Source: Anaerolineae bacterium (GTDB lineage Bacteria > Chloroflexota > Anaerolineae > UBA1429). Taken from it: DNA of 64,000 nucleotides. The notes beneath the pieces are model-generated. The model saw only the letters and a program-made list of their open reading frames with translations. It was not told where the DNA came from and ran no database searches. The position numbers and the translations under genes were made by a program. Where the stretch lies: positions 1,184,001 through 1,248,000 of the forward strand of contig OY776562.1 of NCBI GenBank assembly GCA_963675785.1. The letters are read 5' to 3'. Position 1 is the stretch's first letter. Each line of letters starts with the position of its first letter. Below are positions 13,279 to 32,868 of the stretch, piece by piece.

Positions 13279-13666
13279 GGGGATGACTGGCTTCGACAGG
13301 GACGGCTGGTCAGAGATTGCAGGTCGGGGCGCCTGGACCTCGTTATTAACTGGGCAAAATTTAGGTGCCAACAACACTTTTGAACCGGAATATGCTTTCG
13401 CCGCGTAGGCGATAGCCTCTGTTCCATTGACTGACTCAAGTCAGTCACGTTTGACCCGAGCTTTGTCCGAGAGGTCGGTGTCAGGCGTCGAACAATTCGG
13501 ATTGCTGCCAACCAGGACGCCGCTAGCGGTTGGCTCAAGACAAGGCGGCTGGTGTCGATAGACCTGTCTATTGGTAACATCGACGCGAGATAACATAGAT
13601 AGACTAAACCTGTAGTATATCGCTGGTCGAACTCTTTGGACGCGGGTTCGATTCCCGCCATCTCCA
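13279..13666 (+). ncRNA. ssrA: tmRNA; tag peptide ANNTFEPEYAFAA (13367-13408)
   Basis: 5' GGGGATGACTGGCTTCGACAG; 3' GACGCGGGTTCGATTCCCGCCATCTCCA with the G3-U acceptor pair; tag ends in FAA-stop; smpB is nearby. Confidence 0.97.
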
Positions 13667-13673
13667 CAGAACT

Positions 13674-29818: not shown

Positions 29819-29981
29819 GAATTGCTCACTTTACAGGTTGCAGGATATCGTAGGGGTGATAGTAGACGCAAAGCGTCTTTCGCGCAACAGCACTGTGCTT
29901 GCCGCTCAGGTGATTGCCTTGCCAGCAGGCCAGGCCCGAATTAGTATAAGTTAGGTGACGCTATACACAGGAGGGAATGAC

Positions 29982-30497
29982 GTGGAGTTCGAGGAATTGA
30001 TTCGATCGCGCTACAGCGTCCGCCGGTATACCGACCGCGCTGTGCCCGATGACGTTCTAGAGCGCATCATCGAGGCTTTTGTTCTGGCGCCTACGGCAGC
30101 CAACCGCCAACCTCTAGGTTTGGTAGTGATTAAAACAGCGGGCCGCGAGGACGACCTTCGCCGCATCTACAACTCTGATTGGTTTGCTGCCCAGCCGCCC
30201 TATGTACTGGCTGTGTGTGCAGATAAAGAACAGGCTTGGGTAAGACGCTCTGATCACAAGAGCTTTGCCGATGTGGATGCCGCCATTGCTATGGATCATC
30301 TAGTGCTCGCTGCTGCCAATGAAGGCCTGGGAACTTGCTGGATTGGCGCCTTTGATCCCGAGGCTGCACGGCAGGTATTGGCCTTACCCGATACAGTCGA
30401 GTGTATTACTCTGACACCATTGGGATATCCGGCGGATATAGCAGGTGAGAAACGGCGCAAAAGCCCGGATCAGCTCGTTCATCGTGAGCGCTGGTAG
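29982..30497 (+). CDS. Nitroreductase family protein
   Basis: 'RYSVRRY', 'APTAANRQP', 'GLGTCWIGAF'; GTG after AGGAGG. Confidence 0.9.
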   Translation: MEFEELIRSRYSVRRYTDRAVPDDVLERIIEAFVLAPTAANRQPLGLVVIKTAGREDDLRRIYNSDWFAAQPPYVLAVCADKEQAWVRRSDHKSFADVDAAIAMDHLVLAAANEGLGTCWIGAFDPEAARQVLALPDTVECITLTPLGYPADIAGEKRRKSPDQLVHRERW

Positions 30498-30498
30498 A

Positions 30499-30540
30499 CA
30501 AAAAGAACCGATGCTGGAGATGTATTCCAGCATCGGTCTT
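30499..30540. terminator. Terminator; U tract on the minus strand, probably bidirectional
   Basis: ACCGATGCTGGA-gatgtat-TCCAGCATCGGT preceded by AAAAAG on +. Confidence 0.85.
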
Positions 30541-30542
30541 GA

Positions 30543-30758
30543 ACAGGAGGCTGCTATCGTCACACTGACTGCACATGTTGCAGATTTCACTGCGCGCCGT
30601 TGGACGTCTGTTTCCTGTGTCTCGCCTACTCAAGGACCACAGACCGCCATGTGATGGATAACTCGCCGCTTGCCATCGCTTGGTCGATTATGCCGCTCTT
30701 GCCAAATCCAACTGTCGCGTTACGTGCCTGCCAAGCGTTCGATCAGTCAGTCCCCTGT
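30543..30758 (-). ncRNA. Candidate structured non-coding RNA (~216 nt), family unknown
   Basis: Own promoter and terminator; paired 5'/3' ends (ACAGGGG/CTCCTGT, ACTGACTG/CAGTCAGT); nested helices; no credible ORF. Confidence 0.65.
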
Positions 30759-30764
30759 ACTTAT

Positions 30765-30794
30765 ACTATAGCGGAAAATATCATATTATGTCAA
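30765..30794 (-). promoter_or_regulatory. Sigma70-type promoter of the candidate ncRNA
   Basis: TTGACA-18 nt-TATAGT; predicted +1 at about 30758. Confidence 0.7.
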
Positions 30795-30841
30795 TAGTCA
30801 TAAGCTTTTCTTAACCCTTGCCAATGCTTTGCGACCTCTGA

Positions 30842-31666
30842 CTAGGCTAGATTGGCCACATCCAACCCCTCGTTTTCCAGCATCAGGTTCAATTGCCGGG
30901 CATTCTGAATAGCATAATCTGCAGCGTTATTGTTAAACAACAGATGCAGCTCATCTACGCCCTGCGCAGCCAATTCGTGAATTCGCGGAACCCACTCTCC
31001 TAGCTCCTTGCCGCTGTAGAGATAGTCAAAGCGCTCGCCAGTGGTTTTGACCTTGGCATACCACATCTGAGCATTGCGTCCATGAAAACGAACTAGGGTT
31101 GTTGCAGGATTGGTCACCGCCAATACAGTGGGCACACTGCCCATGCCCAACTGAGGCTCATCCACAATGGTGAGTCCCAATCTGGCCGAGTGCAATTGGC
31201 TCACCAATTCCGGAACATGGTCGCCAACAAGCCAACTGCGATGGCGGAATTCAACCGAGAGTTGGTCGTCGGGAAAAGCTTGACGCAATCCTAGAATGTA
31301 GGACACATTCTCCGGTCGATAAACATACCAGGGCGGGAACTGACAATTGATCACACCCAGCTTGTCAGCTTCTCGTAGTGGTCCGATGCTCTTGGAAAAA
31401 GCGGCCGTATTGGCCGCCTCTGGTGGGTTCTGGCGGTCGTGCCAGGTGATCTGTTTGTAGGGTTTGATATCAAAGACGAACCTGGGTGGCGTGCGTTCTG
31501 CCCACAGTGCATAATTGCGCTCAGGCATCATACGGTAATAGCTGCTATTGATCTCGACCAGGCTAAAATGCTGTGCATAATACCCGATTTGTTGATTCGA
31601 TGGCAGCCCCGGTGGGTAAAAGCCGGTATGGTCGCTCCAACTACAGGTGCCCACATAGATGCGCAT
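30842..31666 (-). CDS. DUF72 (YecE/YunF) family protein
   Basis: 'IYVGTCSW', 'VEINSSYY', 'QFPPW', 'EFRHRSW', 'RFHGRN', 'FNNN'. Confidence 0.92.
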   Translation of the reverse strand: MRIYVGTCSWSDHTGFYPPGLPSNQQIGYYAQHFSLVEINSSYYRMMPERNYALWAERTPPRFVFDIKPYKQITWHDRQNPPEAANTAAFSKSIGPLREADKLGVINCQFPPWYVYRPENVSYILGLRQAFPDDQLSVEFRHRSWLVGDHVPELVSQLHSARLGLTIVDEPQLGMGSVPTVLAVTNPATTLVRFHGRNAQMWYAKVKTTGERFDYLYSGKELGEWVPRIHELAAQGVDELHLLFNNNAADYAIQNARQLNLMLENEGLDVANLA

Positions 31667-31668
31667 GG

Positions 31669-32868
31669 CTACGCCTGACCTCCATTTCCTGCAGGCATTT
31701 TCATCTCCTGCAAGAGCTTCCAGCAGCGCAGCAGTGCACGGGGAACGTGAAAGGGGCCTTTCCACATCGAGCCTTTCAGTTGCAGGGCTACCGAACCGTC
31801 GCGATGGAGATAGCCGTACCACTCGCCATATTCTGGATCGGGGAAATGGCCCCAGGCATAGTTGTGGATGCGCTCATACCACATCTCATAAGCCTCATTG
31901 CTAGTGAGTTGGTAAGCTAGCAACAACGCATAGAGAGCCTCTGTGTGGGGCCACCACAGCTTCATATCCCACTCTAGCTGCTCTGGCGGGTAGCCTTTGG
32001 TGTCTACAAAGGAGAATAGCCCACCGTACTCCTTATCCCAGCCCCACTCTAGCGACCATTCGAGGATTTGTAGCGCATTCAATAGCATGTGGTCATCATG
32101 ACTGCGGCGCGCTTCTTCCATGAGAAACCAGGATGTCTCGATAGCATGGCCTGGGTTGATGCAGCGCCCCAGTGGCCCCTCCAGCAGAGCGCCCTCGGGT
32201 GAGACTGTCTCAAACAGTGCGTGTTCTTCCGGATGCACAAAGTGGGACACGATCTCATCAGCACATTCGCGGATAACCTGTTCATAAAGTGGATCAGGAT
32301 CAACCCGTAAAAGCTCTTGGCTGGTGGCAATGAGAATCATGGGCATAGCGTGGCCCTTGGTGGGCCTGACTTCAGGATTGATCTTTGGATCCAACAAGCC
32401 CGGAACACGGTGGTAACGCAACACAAGGCGGTAGAGCTTGCGAGCGCGGTCAAGTGCCTCCTCATCGCCAGCGGCCAAAGCATATTCGCAGCAAGCGATG
32501 GTGGCAAAGGATTCGGTGAACAAGTAGCGGCGTTTGCGCAGAGGTTGCCCCTTGCGCGTCATCCAAAAGAACAGGCGGCCGTCTTCATCGAAACCATGCT
32601 GTGTCAAAAAACGATAACCGCTGGCCGCCGCCTCGAACCATTCGGACCGCTGTTCGACGCTGTTATACAATCGGGCGTACAGCCAGGTGCCGCGACCCTG
32701 CATCCACATGGCCTTGTCGGTGCCGTAACGTGTCCCATCGCGATCTAGTTGGGTGATGAACCCGTCATACTCACGATCCAGGCCGTATTTTAACCAGAAT
32801 GGAGCAACATCATCCAGCAAAGCAGCCTTATAAAGTTGGCTCAATTCGTTGAGGCGTTCGTCTCGCAT
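31669..32868 (-). CDS. N-acylglucosamine 2-epimerase (AGE family)
   Basis: 'WMQGR', 'NPGHAIETSWF', 'KLWWPHTE', 'KGPFHVPR'. Confidence 0.92.
   Translation of the reverse strand: MRDERLNELSQLYKAALLDDVAPFWLKYGLDREYDGFITQLDRDGTRYGTDKAMWMQGRGTWLYARLYNSVEQRSEWFEAAASGYRFLTQHGFDEDGRLFFWMTRKGQPLRKRRYLFTESFATIACCEYALAAGDEEALDRARKLYRLVLRYHRVPGLLDPKINPEVRPTKGHAMPMILIATSQELLRVDPDPLYEQVIRECADEIVSHFVHPEEHALFETVSPEGALLEGPLGRCINPGHAIETSWFLMEEARRSHDDHMLLNALQILEWSLEWGWDKEYGGLFSFVDTKGYPPEQLEWDMKLWWPHTEALYALLLAYQLTSNEAYEMWYERIHNYAWGHFPDPEYGEWYGYLHRDGSVALQLKGSMWKGPFHVPRALLRCWKLLQEMKMPAGNGGQA

What the first reader, a model, noticed from the sequence alone, without database searches (positions are those of the whole stretch)
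30499..30794. Unannotated ~216-nt structured RNA gene with its own promoter and terminator
Seen: on the minus strand, TTGACA-18-TATAGT puts +1 at about 30758, exactly where a terminal stem begins. ACAGGGG pairs with CTCCTGT (30543-30549), and ACTGACTG pairs perfectly with CAGTCAGT. Further in, GCAG/CTGC, CAC/GTG, CGCG/CGCG and GTTGGA/TCCAAC extend an irregular rod. The rod is capped by a junction of three hairpins (TTGG..CCAA, GATGG..CCATC, GTCTGT..TCCT..AGGA..ACAGAC). GGC(A/G)AG occurs four times in the cap. A 12-bp terminator with a U tract follows the stem directly, and there is no credible ORF. Knowledge: it lacks the SRP helix-8, RNase P (GAGGAAAGTCC) and tRNA signatures. Inference: an independently transcribed ncRNA, either a divergent RNAP-binding (6S/Ms1-like) RNA, a protein-sponge RNA with repeated motifs, or a new class.
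Basis: partly seen in the sequence, partly recalled or inferred. Interest (0 to 1): 0.82.

Follow-up and report, generated by a model that had tools for sequence, protein, structure and literature searches.

The report
Orphan small RNA gene in Anaerolineae
Between two ordinary metabolic genes of an Anaerolineae bacterium lies a real, expressed gene for a roughly 255-base noncoding RNA, but it has no relatives outside its own lineage, so its fold and its function remain unproven.

Summary
The promoter (TTGACA-18-TATAGT, 11/12), the 12-13 bp terminator with a T run and the lack of a credible ORF are confirmed. Three metatranscriptome runs from three studies each hold one contig of 184-194 nt. 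Each is 100% identical to the window and lies wholly inside the predicted RNA (30534-30748); none covers the 2-kb flanks. So an RNA is made here, though its strand was not shown.

The body without the terminator has z = -2.3 to -2.7, against -4.8 for the genome's own 6S.

No Rfam family matches. The genome holds 6S, SRP, RNase P and tmRNA elsewhere. Ro, Hfq, CsrA and ProQ were not found.

No homologue was found in 39-41 family genomes, in 150 (CM) or 400 (BLAST) class genomes, next to DUF72 orthologues, or in phage and plasmid collections. A control model built the same way from the 6S found 37 of 39. Covariation is therefore untestable.

Verdict: a genuine lineage-restricted sRNA gene, not 6S-like, mechanism unknown.

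The parts
30765..30794 (-). Sigma-70-type promoter, TTGACA (30794-30789), 18-nt spacer, TATAGT (30770-30765)
   Evidence: 11 of 12 matches; 159 such sites genome-wide against 8-16 per strand in shuffles; no listed difference inside it in a roughly 95% identical metagenome strain (X9, contig 6).
30758..30758 (-). Predicted transcription start (A), 7 nt after the -10 hexamer
   Evidence: Inferred. RNA-library contigs reach 30744, 30748 and 30717, and none passes 30758. The start has not been mapped.
30543..30758 (-). RNA body, 216 nt
   Evidence: MFE -79.3 kcal/mol, z = -2.69; covered by contigs from three metatranscriptome runs (union 30534-30748).
30706..30758 (-). 5' strand of the long imperfect closing rod (RNA positions 1-53)
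   Evidence: pairs with positions 154-216, most pairs at p > 0.9. Thermodynamic prediction only.
30543..30605 (-). 3' strand of the closing rod (RNA positions 154-216), including a small side hairpin at 30580-30593
30687..30705 (-). Junction strand UUGGCAAGAGCGGCAUAAU, predicted mostly unpaired (RNA positions 54-72)
Evidence: only two weak pairs (p about 0.55).
30645..30686 (-). Cap hairpin A (RNA positions 73-114), containing GAUGG/CCAUC and the motifs GGCAAG and GGCGAG
   Evidence: pairs at p 0.9-1.0.
30606..30644 (-). Cap hairpin B (RNA positions 115-153), GUCUGU/ACAGAC with a GGCGAG loop
   Evidence: outer pairs at p about 0.9, apical pairs at p 0.4-0.6.
30496..30538 (-). Intrinsic terminator: hairpin at 30538-30506 followed by a T run that overlaps the stop codon of the convergent nitroreductase gene
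   Evidence: 13 pairs, 7 G-C, tail CTTTTTGTCT. (12-nt arms, 100% complementary).
30842..31822 (-). Upstream DUF72 gene. No terminator lies between its stop codon and the RNA, so the RNA may also be its 3' UTR.
   Evidence: PF01904, E = 1.5e-54; no terminator-like site between 30842 and 30538.
29955..30497 (+). Convergent nitroreductase-family gene. It is not part of the RNA unit but bounds it.
   Evidence: PF00881, E = 3.7e-26.

Best explanation
This is a lineage-restricted, independently transcribed noncoding RNA of about 255 nt. It runs on the minus strand from about 30758 to about 30500, in an Anaerolineae genome.

Shown:
- A near-consensus sigma-70 promoter and a strong intrinsic terminator bracket it.
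- It holds no translatable ORF.
- RNA libraries from three studies contain exactly this piece and nothing from the flanking genes.

Inferred from thermodynamics only: the two ends pair into a long imperfect rod. The rod leads to a three-way junction with two hairpins and a 19-nt unpaired strand.

Inferred mechanism, with low confidence: the rod and the terminator hairpin protect both ends and make the RNA long-lived. The RNA then acts in trans through the exposed junction strand and the G-rich loops (UGGCAAG, GGCGAG). It would do so by binding a partner without the classical chaperones. My split is base-pairing to another RNA slightly ahead of titrating a protein.

My odds are about 0.8 that it is a real ncRNA gene and about 0.3 that the stated way of acting is right.
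For: - Promoter match of 11/12. Such sites are about 5-10 times more frequent than in shuffles.
- Of 8 other ORF-less promoter-terminator units in this genome, 3 are tRNA loci and 1 is a T-box leader. The promoter model therefore finds real RNA starts.
- Terminator.
- RNA-library contigs X17 30551-30744, X18 30534-30717 and X20 30564-30748 each have 0 differences. All other bins of the 2001-nt stretch have depth 0.
- In a related strain (X9 contig 30692-30924), the 8 listed differences out of 9 all lie at or above 30760. None lies in the promoter hexamers or spacer.
- No start codon has a Shine-Dalgarno motif upstream. The overlapping ORFs have no Pfam family and no protein homologue.
- The fold is well defined, with most pairs at p > 0.9 and z = -2.3 to -2.7.
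- It is single-copy.
- It is not tRNA, tmRNA, 6S, SRP or RNase P, all of which lie elsewhere.
Against: - Contigs do not show strand, ends or amount. The minus-strand assignment rests on the orientation of the promoter and terminator alone.
- The ninth X9 difference is not listed. It may lie in 30692-30722, inside the RNA.
- Structure is supported only modestly: body z = -2.3 to -2.7, against -4.8 for the 6S.
- There is no covariation evidence, because no homologue was found anywhere. R1 gave 0 of 41 and 0 of 39 family genomes and 0 of 150 class genomes. BLAST gave no real match in 60 relatives (its one hit, in G038, lies inside an ORF) and 0 of 400 class genomes.
- Restriction to one lineage also fits a young transcript with no function.
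- The genome-wide scan for complementary targets gave nothing above what chance allows.
- Hfq, ProQ and CsrA were not found, so no known partner can be named.
- No terminator separates it from DUF72. Part of the signal could therefore be a stable 3'-UTR fragment.
Confidence: 0.6

Rival explanations
1. It is a protein-titrating (sponge or scaffold) RNA. The repeated UGGCAAG/GGCGAG elements, two of them in similar hairpins (UGGCAAG-GCGGC...CCA), would bind several copies of an unidentified RNA-binding protein.
For: Four GGC(A/G)AG copies against about 0.19 expected. The junction strand and cap hairpin A begin with nearly the same sequence (sequence shown). The long end-pairing rod is typical of stable protein-bound RNAs (my own knowledge).
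Against: The motif was picked after seeing it. Its copies sit in non-equivalent contexts: one unpaired, one half in a stem, two in loops. UUGGCAA is nearly self-complementary, so the repeats may simply reflect pairing (I5). CsrA, Hfq, ProQ and Ro were not found. The motif marks no obvious regulon in the genome.
Confidence: 0.15
2. It is a second, divergent RNA polymerase-binding RNA of the 6S or Ms1 type.
For: The size (about 216-255 nt), the paired ends, the apparent abundance and the independent transcription unit fit. Some bacteria have two 6S RNAs (my own knowledge).
Against: RF00013 gives no hit even at E <= 10. The genome's canonical 6S scores 68.9 bits elsewhere. The predicted rod has only small internal loops and ends in a branched cap, not a central bubble. 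6S is conserved across the family, at 37 of 39 genomes with a single-sequence model, whereas this RNA gives 0 of 39.
Confidence: 0.04
3. It is a stable by-product without a function of its own. It could be the structured 3' UTR of the DUF72 mRNA, or a young transcript from a chance promoter, that persists because its rod and terminator resist nucleases.
For: No terminator lies between the DUF72 stop codon (30842) and the RNA. It was found in no other genus. The thermodynamic signal is modest.
Against: A promoter match of 11/12 is rarely due to chance in this genome. It shows no listed change in the X9 strain, whereas the discriminator and the region upstream of -35 do change. The RNA contigs stop short of the promoter and include no DUF72 sequence in 3 of 3 RNA runs.
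Confidence: 0.15
4. It is a relic of a mobile element (MITE-like, with terminal inverted repeats giving the rod) or of a degraded gene, and happens to be transcribed.
For: Pairing of the two ends, including a perfect 8-bp inverted repeat (I3). The gene order on the nitroreductase side is not shared with relatives.
Against: It is single-copy in the genome. There is no match in phages, plasmids or viral contigs. No Pfam or protein similarity appears in any frame tested. Base composition is unremarkable.
Confidence: 0.04
5. It is an mRNA for a very small protein or a type I toxin, folded to hide its ribosome-binding site.
For: The 5' AGGGGA pairs with the 3' CCUCCU, which resembles an SD/anti-SD clamp. 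A 16-codon ATG ORF exists.
Against: 0 of 6 minus-strand starts have an SD-like motif upstream. The 16-aa peptide is not hydrophobic. No canonical start codon follows AGGGGA at the proper distance.
Confidence: 0.02

Closest known systems
Lineage-specific bacterial sRNA genes with their own promoter and Rho-independent terminator, including those placed just after a coding gene (recalled examples: DapZ, MicL)
   Same: Sigma-70 promoter, intrinsic terminator and no ORF. It sits directly downstream of a co-oriented gene with no terminator between them. Its taxonomic range is narrow.
   Different: It is longer (about 255 nt) and far more base-paired than typical seed-bearing sRNAs. Hfq and ProQ were not found in the genome. 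No target has been identified.
6S RNA (Rfam RF00013)
   Same: About 200 nt, with the 5' and 3' ends paired into a long imperfect rod. It appears to be stable and abundant.
   Different: It does not match the model, lacks a central bubble and is not conserved in the family as 6S is. A true 6S exists elsewhere in the genome.
CsrB/RsmZ-type protein sponge RNAs
   Same: A short G-rich motif is repeated within a structured, independently transcribed RNA.
   Different: The body has only 3 GGA triplets (read from the sequence). The repeated motif is GGC(A/G)AG, with 4 copies rather than many, and not all copies are in loops. No CsrA was found in the genome.
Bacterial Y RNAs (YrlA) bound by Ro/Rsr
   Same: A closing stem formed by both ends, with a branched distal module.
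   Different: No TROVE/Ro protein was found in the genome. There is no tRNA-like module by ARAGORN and no Rfam hit.
Orphan large structured RNAs such as the raiA motif RNA (in Rfam)
   Same: About 200 nt, multi-stem, its own terminator and unknown function.
   Different: Those families are defined by wide conservation and covariation. This RNA has no detectable homologue and matches none of the 4227 Rfam models.

Membership tests
Independent bacterial sRNA gene (generic kind) | Own promoter upstream of the RNA | tested here: met
   (11/12 match). (enrichment over shuffles). (the same promoter type precedes tRNAs and a T-box leader). It is a prediction and has not been mapped.
Independent bacterial sRNA gene (generic kind) | Intrinsic terminator at the 3' end | tested here: met
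Independent bacterial sRNA gene (generic kind) | A transcript is detected and is more abundant than the flanking mRNAs | tested here: inconclusive
   3 of 3 RNA runs laid (3 studies) hold one contig each, confined to 30534-30748. Strand, ends and level cannot be read from contigs.
Independent bacterial sRNA gene (generic kind) | No translated ORF | tested here: met
6S RNA (RF00013) | Matches the Rfam covariance model at the gathering score (46.4 bits) | tested here: not met
   no hit, even at E <= 10. The genome's own 6S scores 68.9 bits at another place.
6S RNA (RF00013) | Large central bubble that mimics an open promoter (feature recalled from the literature) | tested here: not met
   the predicted rod has internal loops of 1-3 nt and a distal three-way junction. 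Prediction only.
6S RNA (RF00013) | Binds the RNA polymerase holoenzyme | not testable with these tools
   Needs a pull-down.
Any family of Rfam 15 (4227 models, which should cover SRP, RNase P, tmRNA, Y RNA, the raiA motif, riboswitches and ribozymes; I did not check the model list) | Covariance-model match | tested here: not met
   gathering thresholds; E <= 10. The only hits are chance matches of miRNA and sRNA models to the terminator hairpin.
Y RNA / YrlA | Ro60/Rsr (TROVE domain) encoded in the genome, usually nearby | tested here: not met
   PF05731 has no match in the 94.8%-complete single-contig genome.
CsrB/RsmZ-type sponge | CsrA/RsmA partner encoded in the genome | tested here: not met
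   PF02599 has no match.
CsrB/RsmZ-type sponge | Many GGA motifs in hairpin loops | tested here: not met
   3 GGA in the 216-nt body (sequence).
Hfq- or ProQ-dependent base-pairing sRNA | Chaperone encoded in the genome | tested here: not met
   no Hfq and no ProQ. Chaperone-independent base-pairing is not excluded.
Riboswitch or cis-regulatory leader | A co-oriented gene directly downstream | tested here: not met
   the next gene downstream is the convergent nitroreductase on the other strand.
MITE/REP-type repeat element | Multiple copies in the genome | tested here: not met
   single copy.
Conserved structured RNA class (the usual standard for a new class) | Homologues with compensatory base changes | tested here: not met
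   No homologue was found, so covariation could not be assessed. The method control worked.

The most novel reading that the evidence does not exclude
This would be the founding member of a new family of abundant, nuclease-resistant regulatory RNAs in Anaerolineae from wastewater. Its twin UGGCAAG-GCGGC elements and exposed junction strand would capture a still unknown RNA-binding protein, or a set of RNAs. This lineage shows no Hfq, ProQ, CsrA or Ro, so the RNA would reveal a riboregulation system that works without any of the known bacterial RNA chaperones.
Probability: 0.15. Interest if true: 0.65.

Novelty: new member of a known kind. Interest (0 to 1): 0.4.

Why it matters
To my knowledge Chloroflexota, and Anaerolineae in particular, have almost no experimentally studied regulatory RNAs. 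My two literature searches returned only survey-type papers. The unit described here has a clear promoter and terminator, and three metatranscriptomes point to expression in natural communities. That makes it a good first candidate for experimental work on RNA-based regulation in a lineage where the usual chaperones were not found. Its limits are that it is confined to one lineage and that its structure and function are only predicted. It does not by itself open a long-standing question.

Tried and rejected
- BLAST of the 302-nt unit in 60 relatives gave one hit (G038, E = 0.004, 58 nt). It lies inside a 624-aa ORF, so I rejected it as chance.
- The single-sequence covariance model R1 gave only short hairpin matches of at most 15.9 bits in 24 DUF72 orthologue loci, and 11.7 bits in 4 metagenome loci. 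I rejected these.
- Synteny: the nitroreductase gene is not next to DUF72 in any fetched locus. Most gaps after DUF72 orthologues are short.
- The metagenome scan with the DUF72 protein returned only 4 loci at 63-78% identity. The genome-contig scan returned 1, an Anaerolineae MAG.
- Phage and plasmid blastn and one viral contigs pattern scan gave nothing.
- The target scan for sites complementary to the junction strand found 203 sites sharing a 10-mer. The best non-self duplex (-35 kcal/mol) lies in a divergent intergenic region at genome position 2108447. With this many trials and no conservation it is not evidence.
- The genome-wide motif scan for GGCAAG-GCGGC found 13 scattered sites and no pattern.
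- The promoter scan upstream of the 6S and tmRNA genes found no consensus site on their strand. It was uninformative.
- Six other ORF-less promoter-terminator units share no sequence with this RNA.
- Parts of the stretch without cover in the RNA runs are reported only as "no contig laid", not as proof of silence.
- Papers: I saw only the search listings (PMC10477309, PMC2864571, PMC1950547, PMC2258182). I read none and opened no supplements. I make no claim that the RNA is absent from print beyond these two searches.

Full report
WHAT IS THERE

On the minus strand, between the stop codon of a DUF72 gene (30842-31822, PF01904) and the stop codon of a convergent nitroreductase-family gene (29955-30497, PF00881), lies a 344-nt gap. 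The promoter scan finds TTGACA-18-TATAGT at 30794..30765, 11 of 12 matches. The terminator scan finds a 13-pair hairpin at 30538..30506 followed by CTTTTTGT. The repeat finder confirms 12-nt arms with 100% complementarity. This predicts an RNA from about 30758 to about 30500, roughly 255 nt including the terminator.

No start codon with an ORF of at least 8 codons has a Shine-Dalgarno-like word upstream on either strand: 0 of 6 on the minus strand and 0 of 15 on the plus strand. The six longer overlapping ORFs match no Pfam family at a meaningful level. The 65-aa plus-strand ORF that covers most of the RNA has no homologue among 5.8 billion proteins (only lengths of 35-114 aa were searched). 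ARAGORN finds no tRNA or tmRNA here.

IS THE PROMOTER CREDIBLE IN THIS ORGANISM?

The genome has 159 sites with at least 11 of 12 matches on both strands. Composition-preserving block shuffles give 8-16 per strand. Of these 159 sites, 8 others are followed by a terminator within 50-450 nt with no ORF of 40 aa or more. Three of the 8 are tRNA loci that begin 4-5 nt after the predicted start. One is a T-box leader, at 75.3 bits and below its gathering score of 93. One gives weak leader-like hits, and three match nothing. The promoter model therefore finds real RNA starts in this genome.

IS IT EXPRESSED?

I searched for public runs with a 2001-nt stretch (29900-31900) that covers both flanking genes. 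Five rows labelled RNA, two of them only guessed to be RNA, each held the same small share of its words (0.07). I laid three of them, from three different studies (wastewater, wastewater, freshwater), together with one DNA metagenome.

Each RNA run holds exactly one contig on the stretch:
- 30551-30744 (194 nt)
- 30534-17 (184 nt), that is 30534-30717
- 30564-30748 (185 nt)

Each contig is aligned over its whole length with 0 differences. Every bin outside 30503-30770 has depth 0 in all three runs. Any 100-nt part of the 2 kb would have qualified a run as a holder, so it is not a selection effect that all three coincide with the predicted unit.

Contigs cannot show strand, ends or level, and the tool itself calls this kind of pattern a weak hint. 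I read it as good evidence that an RNA from this interval outlasts or outnumbers the flanking mRNAs. It is consistent with, but does not prove, a 5' end at about 30758.

The DNA metagenome X9 holds a related strain, with its pieces 93-99% identical. Its contig 30692-30924 has 9 differences. The 8 that are listed lie at 30760-30762 (between the -10 hexamer and +1), at 30802 and 30825 (upstream of -35), and at 30849, 30854 and 30893 (in DUF72). None lies in the promoter hexamers or spacer, or in 30723-30758. The ninth is unlisted and must lie near a contig end, so it may fall in 30692-30722. This is weak evidence of constraint on the promoter and the 5' part of the RNA.

IS IT STRUCTURED?

With the terminator included, the fold has z = -4.92, but the perfect terminator hairpin drives much of that. 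The 216-nt body alone has an MFE of -79.3 kcal/mol. Its z is -2.69 with 0 of 200 shuffles as stable, or -2.32 with 6 of 300 by my own shuffle. The reverse complement gives z = -1.56 and the genome's own 6S gives -4.81.

The ensemble is well defined, with most pairs above p = 0.9. It consists of:
- a long imperfect rod, positions 1-53 paired with 154-216, bearing a small side hairpin;
- a three-way junction with a 19-nt mostly unpaired strand (UUGGCAAGAGCGGCAUAAU);
- two hairpins on that junction.

The perfect 8-bp ACUGACUG/CAGUCAGU pairing and the UUGG/CCAA hairpin are not. Forcing them costs 9.1 and 4.6 kcal/mol respectively.

GGC(A/G)AG occurs four times, against about 0.19 expected. The copies sit in different structural contexts, and UUGGCAA is nearly self-complementary (I5).

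WHAT IT IS NOT

No Rfam 15 family matches at gathering thresholds over the whole window except the tmRNA at 13279-13669. At E <= 10 over 30400-30900, only chance matches to the terminator hairpin appear. The genome carries a canonical 6S (68.9 bits), a small SRP RNA (72.1 bits) and an RNase P RNA (315 bits) elsewhere.

TROVE/Ro, Hfq, CsrA and ProQ are not found in the single-contig genome, which is 94.8% complete. The unit is single-copy. It has no match in phage or plasmid collections, and one pattern scan of viral contigs found nothing. Base composition is unremarkable.

RELATIVES

A relative's record names the class Anaerolineae. The searches found the following:
- BLAST of the unit found nothing real in 60 relatives. 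The one hit lies inside a 624-aa ORF.
- BLAST of the 216-nt body found nothing in 400 genomes of the class.
- The single-sequence covariance model R1 (216 positions, 74 pairs) found no match in 41 other family genomes with strict filters.
- R1 found none in 39 family genomes with default filters at E <= 1.
- R1 found none in 150 genomes sampled from the class.
- R1 found nothing above hairpin noise in 24 DUF72 orthologue loci with filters off, or in 4 metagenome DUF72 loci.

As a control I built a model in the same way from the genome's own 6S. It found a match in 37 of 39 other family genomes at E <= 0.01. The method works at this evolutionary distance. The RNA is therefore either absent from the other genera of the family or evolves much faster than 6S. 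DUF72 orthologues in the family are at most 69% identical in protein, and the genus holds only this genome among the representatives. Closer relatives that could show covariation are simply not in the collections.

HOW IT MOST LIKELY WORKS

Shown: a bracketed transcription unit, the presence of RNA, and no coding potential.

Inferred from the predicted fold: pairing of both ends plus the terminator hairpin would protect against exonucleases and give a long-lived RNA. The junction strand and the G-rich loops are the only extended accessible parts, so they are the likely contact surface.

Narrow-range, independently transcribed bacterial RNAs are mostly trans-acting regulators (my own knowledge). 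I therefore put base-pairing to another RNA slightly ahead of protein titration, and both well ahead of a 6S-like role. A scan for complementary sites gave nothing beyond chance, and no known partner protein is encoded. A functionless stable 3'-UTR or a young transcript remains a serious rival at 0.15.

NOVELTY AND SCORE

The gene is unannotated in the sense that it matches no known RNA family, and it would seed a new family. Its kind, a lineage-specific sRNA gene, is familiar. Without homologues, the standard for a new structured RNA class (covariation) cannot be met. Interest is 0.4.

Noticed in passing
window 13279-13669 (+): A canonical tmRNA gene (RF00023, 180.7 bits), found in the whole-window Rfam scan.
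   Followed up: no
window 6522 (-) and 7073 (+): Two more near-perfect sigma-70 promoter matches (12/12 and 11/12), about 550 nt apart on opposite strands and pointing away from each other.
   Followed up: no
G003:C79:173-341 and 432-598: One family genome has two adjacent matches to the 6S model on the same strand (39.1 and 74.8 bits). This may be a tandem 6S duplication.
   Followed up: no
L042, L045, L046 (G000:C1:1724826-1725326, 507402-507902, 2120409-2120909): Three other units in the same genome have a promoter match of at least 11/12 and a terminator 74-124 nt downstream. They have no ORF of 40 aa or more, no Rfam match at E <= 0.01 and no tRNA. They are possible further small RNAs or leaders, and are unrelated in sequence to this one.
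   Followed up: partly
L048 148-407 (-) (G000:C1:217737-218237): A T-box leader that scores 75.3 bits, below Rfam's gathering score of 93. A gathering-threshold annotation would therefore miss it.
   Followed up: partly
window 31669-31822: The longest DUF72 ORF overlaps the end of the upstream GlcNAc 2-epimerase gene by about 150 nt. Orthologues align only from residue 45-54 onward, so the true DUF72 start is probably further downstream.
   Followed up: no
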